Position numbers and translations under genes: made by a program. A stretch of 64,000 nucleotides of DNA from the IMG/VR virus record IMGVR_UViG_3300038468_000223, positions 1 through 64,000 of that record. One strand, written 5' to 3'. Source of the stretch: a virus. How positions within the stretch are numbered: the stretch's first letter is position 1; every line of letters starts with the position of its first letter. Below the pieces are notes generated by a model that was not told where the DNA came from, did no database searches, and saw nothing but the letters and a program-made list of their open reading frames with translations. Positions 3,960-9,197 of the stretch are shown one piece after another.

Positions 3960-4135
3960 AACAAAAATCGTCTGTTGGAGGAGCCATGTCTCTGCGTACC
4001 GGGTCGACTCCACGACCTGTAGGCGAATCAGTCGAAGGACACAGCGGAGGATCTGCCGCGGAAGAGAGCCCCTCGACGCTCGCCAATCGCCCCTCTGGGG
4101 CCACTCCAACTGCCTCCCCGCAAGGGGAGTGCGGA
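3960..4135 (+). ncRNA. Candidate tracrRNA
   Basis: ACTCCAACTGCCT (4103-4115) can form 13 contiguous pairs (3 G:U) with repeat segment GGGTGGTTGGAGT and runs into a CTCCCC-GCAA-GGGGAG hairpin; hairpin GGTCG-ACTCCA-CGACC (4002-4017) has a loop complementary to repeat TGGAG; boundaries approximate. Confidence 0.6.
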
Positions 4136-5668
4136 GACGTGGCTCCTTCAGCAGACGATGAAGTCATCTGCGCCAAGTGCGGCAAGCCGCAGGTCCACAA
4201 GGACGACGGCAAGAAGCAGGAGGTCTGCTCCTGCATCAAGATCGTCCGGGCTACGACGCGGTTCCAGATCGACCTGACGTCGCTCAGCCCCAAGGCCCCG
4301 CCGGGGGCCAAGCGGCCGCTGTCGCCGGCGGAGAAGGCGCTGCGCGACGCGCTGCAGGACGTCGCCGTGCTCGCGACGACGGCGCGCAACGTCGCGATGC
4401 GCGCGAACTACGGCGCCGACTCCAAGAGCCTCGACGACTACCTCCTCGAGCACGGCGAGATGCCGCGGAAGTCTGCGGACTGGTGCACGACGAAGCTCTA
4501 CTCGTACCCGAAGATCCGCGCGGCGGTCCCTCGGCTCTCGAGCAACATCGCCGCCACGCTGCAGCGCGAGATCGATCGGAAGTGGTCGCAGGTCCGCTTC
4601 GACGTCCTCATCCGCCAGATCGACTCGTGCCCGCACTTCCGCGTCGGCCAGCCGGTGCCGGTCCCCGCATCCTCGCTCAGGATGCGCAAGCGCGAGGACG
4701 GCGCGCTCGTCCTGTCCTTCTCGCTCTACTCCGGGGCCCACGACGGCGTGAAGAGCGTCGAGGTCCCGATGATCGCGCGCGACGACCACCAGCGGGAGCT
4801 GCTGGAGAAGATCGCGACGGGCGAGTACAAGTACGGGCAGGCGATGATCGAGCGCGATCGGCTGCGGCCGTCGCGGTGGTACCTGCGCCTGGCGTACACG
4901 CGCAAGGTCCCCAAGCGCACCGAGGGGATCGTGGCCGGCGTGCATCGCGGCATCAAGACGTTCCTCTGCGCCGTCACCGCCGACGGCGAGCAGTGGCTCT
5001 ACGACGGCTACGACATCGAGGCGTACCTGAAGCAGGTGCAGCGCCGCCGGCGTCGGATCCAGAACAGCGTCGTCGCGAGCGCACGCGTCGGCCACGGGCG
5101 ACGCCGCGTGCTCACGCCGATCTCGCATCTGCAGGACAAGGCGGCGCGGTGGCGCGCGACGCGGTGCCAGGTGATCGCGCGGCGCCTGGCGCAGTGGCTC
5201 TCGGACCGCAACGTGCGGCGCGTCTACCTCGACGACTTCGTCGGCATCCGCAACGGGCTGCCCGAGCAGCTCGAGGGGGGCCAGACGACCTGGCAGCGGA
5301 TCCAGGAGTGGCCCTTCTACGAGATGCAGATGCGCTTGATCGCGTGCCTGCAGGAGTACGGCATCGAGACCGTCGTCCGGCCCGCGGCGTACATCTCGCA
5401 GCGGTGCCCCCGCTGCGGTCACGTCGCGCAGGAGAACGTCGACCTGAAGTTCTGGTGCGTGCGCTGCACGAAGTGCCGGTTCAAGAAGCACCTCGACATC
5501 AGCGCCGGCATGAACCTCATCGCGAGCGGCGAGGCGGCGTCGAAGGGCGAGCCTAGTGATTTCCTGCGGATGCAGGAGAAGATAGAGGAGGTCCGGAGGG
5601 GCGCTCGCAGAGCGAGTCGCAAGAGCACGAAATCAAAGGAGGCCGACGCGCGGGGGCGGAAGGCGTGA
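3986..5668 (+). CDS. cas12f: Cas12f-like (type V, TnpB-derived) effector with altered RuvC catalytic residues; start may be GTG 4139
   Basis: GHGRRRVLTPISHLQDKAARWR and WPFYEMQ..GIETVVRPAAYISQRCPRCG..CTKC..HLDISAGMNL match the Cas12f/TnpB layout; RuvC-I is GVHRG (D to H) and RuvC-II is YLDDF (E to D); directly abuts a CRISPR array. Confidence 0.85.
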   Translation: MSLRTGSTPRPVGESVEGHSGGSAAEESPSTLANRPSGATPTASPQGECGDVAPSADDEVICAKCGKPQVHKDDGKKQEVCSCIKIVRATTRFQIDLTSLSPKAPPGAKRPLSPAEKALRDALQDVAVLATTARNVAMRANYGADSKSLDDYLLEHGEMPRKSADWCTTKLYSYPKIRAAVPRLSSNIAATLQREIDRKWSQVRFDVLIRQIDSCPHFRVGQPVPVPASSLRMRKREDGALVLSFSLYSGAHDGVKSVEVPMIARDDHQRELLEKIATGEYKYGQAMIERDRLRPSRWYLRLAYTRKVPKRTEGIVAGVHRGIKTFLCAVTADGEQWLYDGYDIEAYLKQVQRRRRRIQNSVVASARVGHGRRRVLTPISHLQDKAARWRATRCQVIARRLAQWLSDRNVRRVYLDDFVGIRNGLPEQLEGGQTTWQRIQEWPFYEMQMRLIACLQEYGIETVVRPAAYISQRCPRCGHVAQENVDLKFWCVRCTKCRFKKHLDISAGMNLIASGEAASKGEPSDFLRMQEKIEEVRRGARRASRKSTKSKEADARGRKA

Positions 5669-7074
5669 GCGGGTGGTTGGAGTTTGGAGGCGCTGCGTGG
5701 TGGACCTCACGATCGATCCAAGGACCGGCGGAAGGCGTGAGCGGGTGGTTGGAGTTTGGAGGCCGGCGAGCGTCCAGCGGCGCGCGCTCGCGGCACGACC
5801 CCAGGCGGAAGGCGTGAGCGGGTGGTTGGAGTTTGGAGGCGTCACGAGGCGCCGCAACGTCTCATCACTGGCGCGGGGGCGGAAGGCGTGAGCGGGTGGT
5901 TGGAGTTTGGAGGGGAAACTAGGAGGTCCCCCCCGAACGGAGGCGGAAGGCGTGAGCGGGTGGTTGGAGTTTGGGAGGTGGTGCGCGAGCCGAAAGAACG
6001 CTTCGCTGACGTGCGGCGGAAGGCGTGAGCGGGTGGTTGGAGTTTGGAGGCACTTGCTCGTGAGCGCGTCGACGAGCCCTTCCGGGCGGAAGGCGTGAGC
6101 GGGTGGTTGGAGTTTGGAGGCAGGCGTCTTGGCCGCACTGGGACTCTTGGCGGAAGGCGTGAGCGGGGTGGTTGGAGTTTGGAGGATGGCGTACACCGAC
6201 GAGGAACTGAGCGAGATCTAGGCGGAAGGCGTGAGCGGGTGGTTGGAGCTTGGAGGATCGCCCGCGTCCGCGCGCGGCGGAAGGCGTGAGCGGGTGGTTG
6301 GAGTTTGGAGGGACTGACGCCGCATCACCGCTCTGGGGTTGTGGCGCAGACGGAAAGCGGGAAGGCGTGAGCGGGTGGTTGGAGTTTGGAGGGTCGAGAA
6401 GCTCCCTGCGTTCTATGTGAACCCGACGAGACGGAAGGCGTTGGAGTTTGGAGGATGGCCAAGGGAAAGAACCAGCACGTCGTCCCCCAGACGGAAGGCG
6501 TGAGCGGGTGGTTGGAGTTTGGAGGTCTTTGCGCGTCCGCCCGAGCACATGTCGATGGCCGAGACGGAAGGCGTGAGCGGGTGGTTGGAGTTTGGAGGAA
6601 CTCCTCGCGGCGCCGTGCAAGCTCGGCCGGCGTGAACGGGTGGTTGGAGGTTTGGAGGGCCGCCGGGCGCTATGCGTCGCGCTCGCGACGTCCGAGCCGG
6701 CGAAGGGCGTGAGCGGGTGGTTGGAGTTGGGAGGATGTGGATCCTCCGACGACGGCGGGGTGGCGTTCATCCGCGCCCGCGCCGGGCGGAAGTCGTGGTT
6801 GGAGTTTGGAGTGGAGTGGAGGATCGCCTTCGTGCGATGGCGTAAGTGGGGGAGTTTGCTTGGCGGAGGGAGGGAACGTTGGAGCTGGAGGAGCGTGACG
6901 GCGTCGACGCCGCAGTGGAGGGCGGGTGGTTGGAGTTTGAAGGCACGGTGGCGTTCATCCGCGCCCGCGCCGGGCGGAAGGCGTGAGTGGGTGGTTGGAG
7001 TTGGAGGCTCGACGACGGATGGCTGCCGAAGCACCCGCGGCGGAAGGCGTGAGCGGGTGGTTGGAGTTTGGAGG
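5655..7074 (+). CRISPR. CRISPR array, repeat GGCGGAAGGCGTGAGCGGGTGGTTGGAGTTTGGAGG (36 bp), about 20-22 repeats
   Basis: Near-exact repeats start at 5655, 5727, 5804, 5878, 5942, 6015, 6085, 6149, 6221, 6276, 6490, 6563, 6973 and 7039; degenerate or deleted copies near 6357, 6430 and 6625-6945; unique spacers of about 19-50 nt. Confidence 0.95.
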
Positions 7075-7527: not shown

Positions 7528-8520
7528 ATGAAGCCCGCCGATCTCGCCCTCGCCGCCCTCTCCGGACCCGAGGCTCCGCTCGCGCCGCTCGAGGCGACGC
7601 GCGCGGACCAGAACCCGGTCTTGGTCTACCTGGCCGGCCGCAAGAGCGAGCGCACGCGCCAGACCATGCGCCAGGGCCTCGAGCGGCTCGCGCGCGCCGG
7701 CGGTTGGGCGAAGTACCCCGTCGAGGCCATCCCCTGGCACCAGATGACGTTCGCGCACACCGACGCGCTGCGAGCGGCGCTCACCCGGCAGGTCTCGCAG
7801 TCGACCGTGGCGCTGTCGCTCGCGGCGCTGCGCGGCGTGTCCAAGACCGCCTGGAAGCTCGGCCTCGTGACCTACGAGCAGCACGCGCGCGCGACGGCGT
7901 GGGACCTCGGTGGGACCCCAGACCGCCTCCCTGCCGGACGCGAGATCTCGCCGCCGGAGATCGTCAAGCTCCAGGCCTACTGCACGGCACAGCCGACGCC
8001 GTACGGCGAATTTCTCAGCGGGATCTTCGCGGTGCTCTTCGGCGCCGGCATGCGCGCGCACGAGCCCGGAGGGCTCACGATCGACGCCTACGATCCGGAT
8101 GAGCACTCGGTGCGCTTCGTGCGCAAGGGGCGCAAGCAGGCCGAGATCCCGCTGGGCGGCGCCGAGGCGGCCGCGCTCGAGGCCTGGATCGCGGTCCGCC
8201 GCACGCTCGACGTGCCCGCGACGTGGCTCTTCCCGCGCGTGCAGCGCAACGGCATCGTGCGCGCCCAGCCGATCACGAACAAGGGGCTCTGGCACCTCTG
8301 CAAGGCGATCGGCGAGGCGGCGAGCATCCGCGAGTTCAGCCCGCACGACACGCGCCGAACGTACTGCACGCGCCTGCTCAGCTCGGGGCTCGACCTGGCG
8401 ACGGCGCAGCGCCTCATGAGCCACTCGAGCCCGGCGACCACGGTCCGCTACGACAAGCGGCAGGCGCGCGCCGACGCCGAAGCGCGGCAGCGCGTGACGA
8501 TCTGGGGAGGTGAAGGATGA
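7528..8520 (+). CDS. Tyrosine recombinase (Xer/Cre-like resolvase or integrase)
   Basis: Catalytic R (GMRAHE), K (RKG), HDTRR, MSH and Y (TTVRYD). Confidence 0.92.
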   Translation: MKPADLALAALSGPEAPLAPLEATRADQNPVLVYLAGRKSERTRQTMRQGLERLARAGGWAKYPVEAIPWHQMTFAHTDALRAALTRQVSQSTVALSLAALRGVSKTAWKLGLVTYEQHARATAWDLGGTPDRLPAGREISPPEIVKLQAYCTAQPTPYGEFLSGIFAVLFGAGMRAHEPGGLTIDAYDPDEHSVRFVRKGRKQAEIPLGGAEAAALEAWIAVRRTLDVPATWLFPRVQRNGIVRAQPITNKGLWHLCKAIGEAASIREFSPHDTRRTYCTRLLSSGLDLATAQRLMSHSSPATTVRYDKRQARADAEARQRVTIWGGEG

Positions 8521-9197
8521 ACTGTCCGATCTGGAAACGGACGGCGGATGGTGCGACCGTCAGTCGATGCTGCCTACGCCTGCCCGACGGCAAGACGTGC
8601 CCTCGACATGGCGACGTTTCCGCCGCCGTCGAGACGTTCAGCCAGACAGGTCAGTTGACCGAGGAGGGGACGCTCAACAAGAGCGTCGAGGCGGCGATCC
8701 ACCTCGTCATGGGCTACGGTGGTCCGTTCGAAAAGACTGCAATCGCCGGGCTTCGCAGCCTCATCGGCTCCAACAACTCCAGCTTCGTCGCCCGGCTCAA
8801 AGAACAACTTCGACCCCACGGCATCGAAATCATCACAGCCACACTGGGGCGCGTTGAAGGGCGACAGGCGTGGGTGCTCTCGATGAAGCTCCCGAACGGT
8901 CACGTCACGACGATCGACGCCGTACTCGAGCCGGCCAAGGACCCGTTTTCTTGCGACGCCGAGATCGCCGATCGCGTCGTGATGCACGTGCTCGGCCGCA
9001 GGCGTTCCGCGCCAACGCACGGTGTCCCGTCGGACGCGATCCACCTCGAGCTGTCGCCCGTCGAAGCCGCCACGCTCCGCGCGGCGCTCGACATGATGCA
9101 GCGCCACCCATTTTCACGGGATTTCAGAGTTCTGGTCGACGATCACGGCCCCAACATCCTGGCGCGGATCGCCGGGCGCCTCCGAAGCCGGTCATGA
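8517..9197 (+). CDS. Hypothetical protein
   Basis: Coupled to the recombinase stop (ATGA overlap). Confidence 0.6.
   Translation: MNCPIWKRTADGATVSRCCLRLPDGKTCPRHGDVSAAVETFSQTGQLTEEGTLNKSVEAAIHLVMGYGGPFEKTAIAGLRSLIGSNNSSFVARLKEQLRPHGIEIITATLGRVEGRQAWVLSMKLPNGHVTTIDAVLEPAKDPFSCDAEIADRVVMHVLGRRRSAPTHGVPSDAIHLELSPVEAATLRAALDMMQRHPFSRDFRVLVDDHGPNILARIAGRLRSRS

What the first reader, a model, noticed from the sequence alone, without database searches (positions are those of the whole stretch)
6186..6489. Spacers that start exactly at ATG and read like N-termini of defence-island genes
Seen: spacer 6186-6220 translates as MAYTDEELSEI and spacer 6455-6489 as MAKGKNQHVVP; the spacer at 6735 also starts with ATG. 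Several others read as plausible sense coding sequence (VEKLPAFYVNPT, LDDGWLPKHP). From recall, not searched: MAK.KNQHVVP is the typical start of DUF2188 proteins, often found in defence and CBASS neighbourhoods, and MAYTDEEL resembles the start of some small HNH nucleases. Inference: guides place a dead effector at host gene starts on the template strand, the geometry that favours dCas12 repression, so this may be programmable silencing of anti-phage genes. I saw no self-match within the window.
Basis: partly seen in the sequence, partly recalled or inferred. Interest (0 to 1): 0.82.

Follow-up and report, generated by a model that had tools for sequence, protein, structure and literature searches.

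The report
Phage dead-Cas12f guide at defence-gene start
A 105-kb wetland phage carries a CRISPR array served by a Cas12f-like protein that has probably lost DNA cutting, and one guide copies the first 35 bases of a DUF2188 gene, a small gene that in other bacteria leads anti-phage (CBASS, Thoeris) operons; the wider claim that the guides aim at gene starts is not borne out.

Summary
The sequence facts hold. The array runs 5655-7074 (36-nt repeat, about 21 repeats, about 19 spacers). Spacers at 6186, 6455 and 6735 start with ATG.

Spacer 6455-6489 encodes MAKGKNQHVVP(H/Q). This is the exact N-terminus of 75-77-aa DUF2188 proteins (Pfam PF09954, PADLOC candidate PDC-S16). In five loci I examined, this gene sits at the head of CBASS, Thoeris or Fic genes, mostly inside type I R-M islands.

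The effector (3986-5668) is Cas12f-like with RuvC-I Asp replaced by His. All 33 aligned relatives also lack that Asp.

No true protospacer was found for any spacer: none in the phage's 105 kb, and none in the collections each spacer was run against. MAYTDEELSEI could not be identified, and the HNH recollection is untested.

The "readable" spacers have an ordinary cause. Spacer 5' ends are locked to codon phase (25 of 43, P = 7e-4), as an A/T-containing 5' PAM on high-GC coding DNA predicts. Both strands are hit (10 sense, 9 antisense).

ATG at position 1 is nominally enriched here (P about 0.001-0.01). It is absent from about 30 spacers of three sister arrays.

Best reading: a CRISPRi-like phage system with at least one plausible anti-defence guide, not a rule of targeting gene starts. 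This scan has already seen phage dead-Cas12f arrays on other DNA.

The parts
3986..5668 (+). Cas12f-like effector gene, 560 aa from ATG 3986 (the public gene call is 509 aa). RuvC-I reads GVHRG (Asp to His), RuvC-II reads YLDDF (Glu to Asp), RuvC-III reads HLDISA (Asp kept). The zinc-ribbon TNB domain is present.
   Evidence: Pfam PF07282 and PF01385. PDB AsCas12f 8j12/7wju at E = 1e-29, with a residue alignment. PADLOC Cas12u3/Cas12f at E = 1e-47. Motif table for 33 relatives.
5655..7074 (+). CRISPR array: 36-nt repeat GGCGGAAGGCGTGAGCGGGTGGTTGGAGTTTGGAGG, about 21 repeats and about 19 spacers of 19-50 nt. The first repeat overlaps the effector's stop codon. Repeats between 6350 and 7010 are degenerate or truncated.
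   Evidence: The repeat 3' end TTGGAGG is shared with three sister arrays.
6455..6489 (+). Spacer S12: sense copy of codons 1-12 of a DUF2188/PDC-S16 gene (MAKGKNQHVVP + CA).
   Evidence: Of its last 20 nt, 19 are identical to a Mesorhizobium plasmid DUF2188 gene.
6186..6220 (+). Spacer S8: ATG-first, with a strong in-frame coding signal (MAYTDEELSEI + TA). The target family is unknown.
   Evidence: score 9.1 bits, margin 7.8. No match.
6735..6784 (+). 50-nt ATG-first unit S16. It is chimeric: its last 26 nt repeat those of spacer 6944-6972, and its middle resembles spacer 7008-7038.
   Evidence: family D5; a contig loops 6946 to 6759.
6393..6430 (+). Spacer S11: sense coding in frame 1 (VEKLPAFYVNPT), not ATG-first.
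   Evidence: No match in IMG/VR.
7008..7038 (+). Spacer S20: sense coding in frame 1 (LDDGWLPKHP), not ATG-first.
   Evidence: No match in IMG/VR.
7528..8520 (+). Tyrosine integrase gene next to the array (context: a temperate or mobile module).
   Evidence: Pfam PF00589 at E = 8e-26.

Best explanation
The locus is a phage-borne type V-F-like CRISPR module. The Cas12f-like protein has lost the first RuvC catalytic Asp, so it most likely binds DNA without cutting and blocks transcription (inferred).

The array is read on the + strand as repeat-spacer crRNAs. This is inferred from the gene orientation and from the conserved repeat 3' end.

The spacers come mostly from protein-coding DNA of unidentified high-GC targets, on both strands. 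Their 5' ends are locked to codon phase because the effector or the acquisition step needs an A/T-containing 5' PAM of the TTN type (inferred from statistics).

One guide, S12, copies the first 35 nt of a DUF2188/PDC-S16 gene (shown at peptide level). In other bacteria this small gene is the first gene of CBASS, Thoeris and R-M-embedded defence operons (shown). Parked there on the template strand, the complex would block RNA polymerase at the entrance of the operon and silence the genes downstream (inferred).

ATG at spacer position 1 is best read as a PAM lying directly before a start codon, plus small numbers. It is not a design rule of the array.
For: - Effector identity and the RuvC-I substitution. 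Loss of that Asp across the family (N, H, T or C in 33 of 33).
- No Cas1, Cas2 or sigma factor in the genome.
- The repeat 3' end TTGGAGG is conserved in arrays next to relatives (L023, L117, L053).
- Codon-phase lock: GC is highest at spacer phase 3 in 25 of 43 spacers (P = 7e-4). The control anchored at the 3' end gives 13.5 of 43.
- Simulation on this genome: WWN PAMs give 61-63% phase-3 maxima, CCN gives 28%.
- Frame calls: 12 of 31 are sense with the codon starting at position 1, and 6 of 31 are antisense with position 1 at codon position 2. These are the two classes a TTN PAM predicts.
- S12 equals a DUF2188 N-terminus.
- DUF2188 matches PDC-S16.
- DUF2188 heads defence operons in L011, L013, L015, L022 and in a Mesorhizobium plasmid, where an ImmA/IrrE gene and an HTH gene lie divergent from DUF2188-CapV-nucleotidyltransferase.
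- Literature links DUF2188 to defence.
- DUF2188 is rare in phage records (23 of 50,697) and commoner on plasmids (471 of 72,556).
- A template-strand crRNA is the effective geometry for DNase-dead Cas12a: PMC5460296.
- CRISPR-linked dCas12f with promoter-directed guides has been noted before: PMC13472631.
Against: - No protospacer was found for any spacer. The array as a whole was compared with the genome's own 105 kb, two related phage genomes, INPHARED phages, PLSDB plasmids and the contigs of the two wetland runs that hold the phage. S12 alone was scanned against GTDB and JGI metagenomes, where the best match was 30 of 35 in low-GC genomes. Wobble patterns for S8, S11, S12 and S20 were scanned against IMG/VR.
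- Host, PAM, expression, crRNA processing and tracrRNA are all unknown.
- The evidence for an anti-defence role rests on one spacer out of about 19.
- Under a PAM-only null, a single spacer landing on a likely gene start has P of about 0.02-0.03 per array, and about 0.1 across the four arrays.
- His at RuvC-I, with Asp at RuvC-II and RuvC-III, does not formally exclude residual catalysis.
- The 3' half of the array is scrambled, which fits decay.
Confidence: 0.5

Rival explanations
1. The array is a dedicated, programmable silencer of host anti-phage genes, and its guides are systematically placed at gene starts on the template strand.
For: - S12 sits on a DUF2188 start codon in the template-strand geometry.
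- ATG at position 1 occurs in 3 of 19 spacers, against 0.9-2.5% expected.
- ATG within the first 5 nt occurs in 10 of 51 spacers across four arrays (Fisher P = 0.003). PAM-only models give about 1.0-1.3% per position.
Against: - Nine of 19 spacers score as antisense, and most spacers look internal to genes.
- The intact sister arrays show 0 of about 30 with ATG at position 1.
- The first-5-nt enrichment falls to about P = 0.04-0.09 when doubtful units are dropped (my estimate from the counts).
- TTG starts four spacers but GTG only one, which does not fit start-codon usage in high-GC genomes.
- S8 is unidentified and S16 is chimeric.
- No host or protospacer is known.
Confidence: 0.15
2. Ordinary warfare between mobile elements. 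The spacers target rival phages, prophages or plasmids, and DUF2188 is simply cargo on such an element. The dead effector blocks the rival's transcription or replication, and the start-codon coincidences are chance combined with the PAM effect.
For: - DUF2188 is also a phage protein family (phrog_3220).
- It occurs in 23 prophage-like phage records and 471 plasmids.
- Phage-encoded arrays are known to target competing phages (PMC7162821).
- Most spacers look like ordinary coding DNA on both strands.
Against: - No spacer matches IMG/VR (four spacers tested by wobble pattern), INPHARED or PLSDB.
- The related phages G001 and G002 carry no targets and no DUF2188 gene.
- DUF2188 is present in only 0.05% of phage records.
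Confidence: 0.25
3. A decaying relic. The array is no longer used, and the patterns reflect history only.
For: - Repeats are degenerate or truncated, one spacer is duplicated, and spacer lengths range from 19 to 50 nt in the 3' half.
- There is no adaptation module.
- No targets were found.
Against: - Eight repeats are perfect, including the last one.
- The effector ORF is intact, and 48 relatives keep the same architecture.
- Sister phages keep clean arrays.
Confidence: 0.08
4. RNA-guided transcription activation, as in the dCas12f-sigmaE systems, with guides placed at gene starts to fire transcription.
For: A related principle exists for dead Cas12f (PMC13472631).
Against: - No sigma-70 or ECF sigma gene lies next to the locus or anywhere in the genome.
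- The effector keeps a full C-terminal TNB domain and a classical multi-spacer array, unlike the sigmaE-linked forms described in that paper.
Confidence: 0.02

Closest known systems
CRISPR-array-associated nuclease-dead Cas12f cluster (Hoffmann, Wiegand et al., Nature 2026, PMC13472631, Extended Data Fig. 1)
   Same: A Cas12f-like protein with an inactivating RuvC change, encoded beside a CRISPR array. Its guides are suggested to repress genes by binding near promoters.
   Different: That cluster is described from bacterial genomes (a Chitinophagaceae MAG, with a target before an efflux operon) and only by bioinformatics. Here the system is on a 105-kb high-GC phage, has about 19 spacers, and the one identified target family is a defence-operon leader gene. 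Whether the two are the same clade was not tested.
Type V-F1 Cas12f1 nucleases (AsCas12f, PDB 8j12/7wju; Un1Cas12f 7l48)
   Same: Best sequence match (E = 1e-29). The domain order, zinc-ribbon TNB domain and RuvC-III Asp are the same, and the array follows the gene.
   Different: RuvC-I Asp is His and RuvC-II Glu is Asp. There is an N-terminal extension of about 150 aa. The repeat is purine-rich and unstructured, and no clear tracrRNA was found.
TldR, phage-encoded TnpB-like nuclease-dead repressors (bioRxiv 10.1101/2023.11.30.569447; PMC13418256)
   Same: A phage-borne, nuclease-dead, TnpB-derived RNA-guided DNA binder that silences a host gene by sitting at its promoter or 5' end.
   Different: TldR uses one fixed omega-RNA guide against flagellin or transporter genes. 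Here a multi-spacer CRISPR array offers many guides.
Cas12m (type V-M) and Cas12c, natural DNA-binding interference without cutting (my own knowledge, not checked here)
   Same: Type V effectors that protect by blocking transcription rather than cleaving the target.
   Different: Those keep an active RuvC for crRNA processing and are cellular or plasmid defence systems. Here the RuvC-I Asp is lost and the carrier is a phage.
CRISPR arrays of huge phages with spacers against host genes and rival phages (Al-Shayeb et al. 2020, PMC7162821)
   Same: A phage-encoded array without an adaptation module, proposed to redirect host functions or fight competitors.
   Different: Those effectors (CasPhi and others) are active nucleases.

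Membership tests
CRISPR array | Several near-identical direct repeats of 23-50 nt, separated by unique spacers of similar size | tested here: met
   About 21 copies of a 36-nt repeat. Spacers are unique apart from one 26-nt duplication.
CRISPR array | An adaptation module (cas1, cas2) in the same genome | tested here: not met
   No PF01867 or PF09827 match in the 105,511-bp genome. This is usual for phage-borne arrays and does not exclude membership.
Cas12f (type V-F) | Sequence similarity over the WED/REC/RuvC/TNB architecture, including the zinc ribbon | tested here: met
   PF07282 and PF01385. AsCas12f at E = 1e-29 over residues 150-512. PADLOC Cas12u3/Cas12f at E = 1e-47.
Cas12f (type V-F) | An intact RuvC D-E-D catalytic triad | tested here: not met
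   GIDLG in AsCas12f aligns with GVHRG here, and MEDL aligns with LDDF. All 33 relatives lack the first Asp. It is therefore filed as a dead Cas12f-like protein, not as a Cas12f nuclease.
Cas12f (type V-F) | A tracrRNA with an anti-repeat | tested here: inconclusive
   No strong anti-repeat lies within 5 kb. Duplex energies do not rise above the GC-rich background. A short CTCCAAC...CCTCC match at about 4100-4117, inside the ORF's 5' part, is only a lead.
Cas12f (type V-F) | A T-rich PAM 5' of the protospacer | tested here: inconclusive
   No protospacers are known. The codon-phase lock of spacer 5' ends fits WWN/TTN and not CCN, which is indirect evidence.
dCas12f-sigmaE RNA-guided transcription systems | An adjacent rpoE (ECF sigma) gene and single chimeric gRNAs | tested here: not met
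   The neighbouring ORFs contain no sigma domain, and the genome has no PF04542 match. A classical array is present instead.
DUF2188 / PADLOC PDC-S16 as the source of spacer 6455 | The spacer, translated from its first base, equals the family's N-terminus | tested here: met
   21 loci encode MAKGKNQHVVP at the start of a 75-77-aa PF09954 protein. 4 of 120 database members start with MAKGKNQHVVPH.
DUF2188 / PADLOC PDC-S16 as the source of spacer 6455 | A near-identical protospacer (33 of 35 or better) with a flanking PAM in a real genome | tested here: not met
   The best match is 30 of 35, in low-GC genomes. A Mesorhizobium plasmid gene matches 19 of 20 over the 3' part. No match in IMG/VR.
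Defence-island gene (the claim about the target family) | Recurrent placement inside or at the head of known defence systems | tested here: met
   Five of five loci examined: CBASS (L011, L022, L151), Thoeris ThsB (L015), and Fic within type I R-M (L013). Papers agree. A defence function for DUF2188 itself has not been tested.
Phage anti-defence by silencing host genes | The target lies in the host genome, and silencing helps the phage | not testable with these tools
   The host is unknown. Relatives cannot be drawn for a virus record.

The most novel reading that the evidence does not exclude
Phage-encoded dead-Cas12f arrays are programmable anti-defence devices. Guides park the protein on the first codons of small leader genes such as DUF2188, and so switch off whole CBASS or Thoeris operons by a polar transcription block. 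The phage would in effect carry a heritable, updatable list of host immune operons to silence.
Probability: 0.22. Interest if true: 0.85.

Novelty: new variant of a known kind. Interest (0 to 1): 0.55.

Why it matters
Known phage counter-defences are proteins or small RNA decoys, each aimed at one system. A phage-borne, non-cutting CRISPR effector whose guide sits on the leader gene of CBASS/Thoeris-type operons would be a programmable counter-defence. It would also be a natural CRISPRi example with a defined, testable target.

The result also gives DUF2188, a very widespread small gene of unknown role, a position worth testing: it is the first gene of many signalling defence operons.

The codon-phase analysis offers a way to infer PAM type for high-GC targets when no protospacer can be found. 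It also explains why such spacers read like protein.

Tried and rejected
Spacer searches that found no target:
- All spacers by BLAST against the 105-kb genome: nothing above 18 nt.
- The whole array against INPHARED phages and PLSDB plasmids: only chance-level hits.
- S12 and S8 alone against plasmids. S12 gave partial DUF2188 matches; S8 gave noise.
- Wobble-degenerate patterns in IMG/VR for S12, S8, S11 and S20: 0 hits each.
- The related phages G001 and G002 hold no targets and no DUF2188 gene. The L023 spacers do not hit this phage.

Laying contigs of the two wetland runs on the array:
- The array is collapsed in the assembly.
- The only candidates are weak matches: 30 of 33 to the PAM-distal part of S15, running 3 nt into the repeat, and 32 of 37 to part of S16. 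I treat both as chance.

Searches for more arrays:
- A repeat-tail pattern scan gave mostly chance hits, plus L117 and L053.
- A second profile of distant relatives found no more viral loci.

Other dead ends:
- Short-peptide tblastn of all spacer frames against the fetched loci gave only low-complexity noise.
- The search for an anti-repeat or tracrRNA by alignment and by duplex energy was inconclusive.
- The weak PF09954 hit inside ORF 8517-9197 (E = 0.005, below the cut-off) is treated as noise.
- The Paracoccus plasmid hit to S12 lies inside an unrelated ORF and is chance.
- No paper mentions PDC-S16.
Full report
**What is there**

The window is the first 64 kb of a 105,511-bp IMG/VR virus record with direct terminal repeats. 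It is also held by two wetland metagenome runs.

A CRISPR array occupies 5655-7074. Its 36-nt repeat is GGCGGAAGGCGTGAGCGGGTGGTTGGAGTTTGGAGG, in about 21 copies with about 19 spacers. The first repeat overlaps the stop codon of the upstream gene. Eight repeats are perfect. Between about 6350 and 7010 the repeats are truncated or degenerate, spacer lengths run from 19 to 50 nt, and 26 nt are shared by the units at 6735 and 6944.

**The effector**

The upstream gene (3986-5668) is Cas12f-like:
- Pfam TNB and OrfB domains.
- AsCas12f at E = 1e-29.
- PADLOC Cas12u3/Cas12f at E = 1e-47.

In the residue alignment with AsCas12f, the RuvC-I Asp is His (GVHRG), the RuvC-II Glu is Asp, and the RuvC-III Asp is kept. 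A database search gave 48 relatives at 35-56% identity, many on contigs of 60-125 kb. All 33 that I aligned lack the RuvC-I Asp, carrying N, H, T or C instead.

The genome has no Cas1, Cas2 or sigma-70-family gene. A tyrosine integrase follows the array.

**Checking the observation**

All quoted translations are correct. No spacer matches the phage's own 105 kb.

The key recollection passed a direct test. A wobble-degenerate DNA pattern for MAKGKNQHVVP found 8 loci in 185,579 GTDB species genomes and 13 in JGI metagenomes. In every one the match is the start codon region of a 75-77-aa ORF. These ORFs are:
- Pfam DUF2188 at E = 1e-25.
- PADLOC candidate defence gene PDC-S16 at E = 1e-40 over the full length.
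- phrog_3220.

In 101 of the 120 closest database members, the motif KNQHVVPH begins 3-5 residues from the N-terminus, and four begin MAKGKNQHVVPH exactly. The spacer's last two bases (CA) fit the next residue, His or Gln. Spacer 6455-6489 is therefore a sense copy of the first 35 nt of a DUF2188 gene from a GC-richer genome than any hit. The best nucleotide identity is 30 of 35, with all differences at wobble sites. A Mesorhizobium plasmid DUF2188 gene matches 19 of the last 20 nt.

**Is DUF2188 a defence-island gene?**

Yes, in every case I looked at:
- L011: DUF2188, 2TM effector, CD-NTase.
- L022: HsdM, HsdS, DUF2188, SMODS cyclase, SLATT effector, HsdR.
- L015: HsdM, PDC-S05, HsdS, DUF2188, two ThsB TIR genes.
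- L013: HsdS, DUF2188, Fic/SoFic-like, a Schlafen-type protein.
- Mesorhizobium ciceri plasmid: an ImmA/IrrE peptidase and an HTH regulator lie divergent from DUF2188, CBASS cGAMP-activated phospholipase and nucleotidyltransferase.

The last arrangement is the CapH/CapP-regulated layout described by Lau et al., who also list DUF2188-led operons. DUF2188 also lies beside the Pa011 CBASS and is listed as a putative Thoeris effector.

The family is rare in phage records (23 of 50,697, mostly streptococcal prophages) and commoner on plasmids (471 of 72,556). In all five loci the gene lies directly upstream of defence genes on the same strand, and in L151 it is the first gene after the divergent regulator pair. 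A block at its start would therefore be polar on them.

**What could not be shown**

No real protospacer was found for any spacer. Host, PAM and target replicon are therefore unknown.

MAYTDEELSEI has a strong in-frame coding signal but could not be assigned. The HNH idea remains a recollection.

The unit at 6735 is chimeric and is weak evidence.

**Why so many spacers read like protein**

In this array and three sister arrays next to relatives of the effector (L023, L117, L053), G+C is highest at every third base counted from the spacer's 5' end. This holds in 25 of 43 spacers (P = 7e-4). Counting from the 3' end gives 13.5 of 43.

On this genome, taken as a stand-in for high-GC DNA, sites after a WWN motif such as TTN give 61-63% phase-3 maxima, while CCN gives 28%.

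Codon-usage scoring puts 12 of 31 spacers in 'sense, codon starts at base 1' and 6 of 31 in 'antisense, base 1 is codon position 2'. These are exactly the two classes a TTN-type PAM predicts.

The readable frame-1 spacers therefore follow from an A/T-containing 5' PAM acting on GC-rich coding DNA. Both strands are used: 10 sense and 9 antisense in this array. The shared repeat end TTGGAGG and the phase lock at the 5' end also support reading the array on the + strand as repeat-spacer.

**Is ATG at base 1 more than chance?**

In this array it is nominally so:
- 3 of 19, against 0.9% for any site, 1.8% after TTN and 2.5% after NTTR. These give P of about 8e-4, 5e-3 and 1e-2.
- Without the chimeric unit, 2 of 18 gives P of about 0.04.

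The intact sister arrays show none in about 30 spacers.

Across all four arrays, an ATG starts within the first five bases in 10 of 51 spacers (Fisher P = 0.003 against later positions). PAM-only models give 1.0-1.3% per position. This weakens to about P = 0.04-0.09 when doubtful units are removed.

Under the PAM-only null, the chance that a given spacer starts on a likely gene start is about 0.1-0.16%. One such case has P of about 0.02-0.03 per array, or about 0.1 over the four arrays.

I conclude that S12 truly lies on a start codon. A general rule of targeting gene starts is not established.

**Mechanism**

The most likely reading (confidence about 0.5) has four steps:
1. The phage expresses a DNA-binding, non-cutting Cas12f-like protein with crRNAs from the array.
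2. The complexes bind PAM-flanked matches and block RNA polymerase.
3. The S12 guide pairs with the template strand at codons 1-12 of a DUF2188 gene. This is the orientation found most effective for DNase-dead Cas12a (PMC5460296).
4. That would shut off the defence genes behind it.

Shown: the effector family and its lost Asp, the identity of the S12 source family, that family's position in defence operons, and the phase lock. Inferred: binding without cutting, the transcribed strand, the PAM, the host location of the target, and any benefit to the phage.

**Comparison with the known**

- Dead Cas12f proteins beside CRISPR arrays, with guides near promoters, were noted bioinformatically by Hoffmann et al. 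(PMC13472631).
- Phage-borne dead TnpB repressors (TldR) silence host genes with one fixed guide.
- Huge phages carry arrays with spacers against host genes (PMC7162821).
- This scan has already reported phage dead-Cas12f arrays on other DNA. In a TIGR-TasA case, it judged a similar 'start-codon' pattern to be chance.

What is new here is the identified target family of one guide, the leader gene of CBASS/Thoeris-type operons. I rate it a new variant of a known kind and moderately interesting. The anti-defence reading is worth a bench test.

**Limits**

The GTDB and JGI scans were each limited to one pattern.

Noticed in passing
window 5655-5668: The first CRISPR repeat overlaps the last codons and the TGA of the effector gene. 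There is no leader between gene and array, so the array is probably co-transcribed with the effector.
   Followed up: partly
window 6350-7010: This part of the array is scrambled. Repeats are truncated at about 6432-6454 and 6785-6811. There is an odd GGAGTGGAGTGGAGG insertion at about 6806-6822. A 26-nt duplication links 6759-6784 and 6947-6972. Three consecutive repeats begin GACGG instead of GGCGG.
   Followed up: partly
window 4096-4117: Inside the 5' coding part of the effector gene there is a short stretch (CCACTCCAACTGCCTCC) partly complementary to the repeat 3' end. Earlier notes of this scan place a tracrRNA inside the start of related dead-Cas12f genes. The protein N-terminus (E.SP.ALAN) is oddly conserved in relatives.
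   Followed up: partly
L151 (Mesorhizobium ciceri plasmid NZ_CP088148.1) 2658-6430; L011 1803-3978; L022 7250-9453; L015 5320-7597: DUF2188 sits directly upstream of CBASS or Thoeris genes on the same strand, downstream of a CapH/CapP-like pair in L151 and of hsdS in L022 and L015. Its role as a leader gene appears unstudied.
   Followed up: partly
L023 7469-9400; L117 856-1667; L053 14379-14890: Three sister arrays in IMG/VR phages have different repeats, but all end in TTGGAGG. Spacer lengths vary from 34 to 42 nt within one array, which is unusual for Cas1-Cas2 acquisition. Four spacers start with TTG.
   Followed up: partly
window 6669-6701: A 1,128-nt contig in run X2 and a 159-nt contig in run X1 match 30 of 33 nt of the PAM-distal part of spacer 6659-6698, plus 3 nt of the next repeat. 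This is probably chance GC-rich similarity.
   Followed up: no
window 8702-8776 (ORF 8517-9197): A weak, sub-threshold DUF2188 profile hit (E = 0.005, 14 bits) lies in the 226-aa ORF after the integrase. It is probably noise.
   Followed up: no
window 5654 to 7039: The Logan contig of run X1 joins the first and last repeats and skips 1,384 bp. This is an assembly collapse of the array, not evidence of a deletion variant.
   Followed up: no
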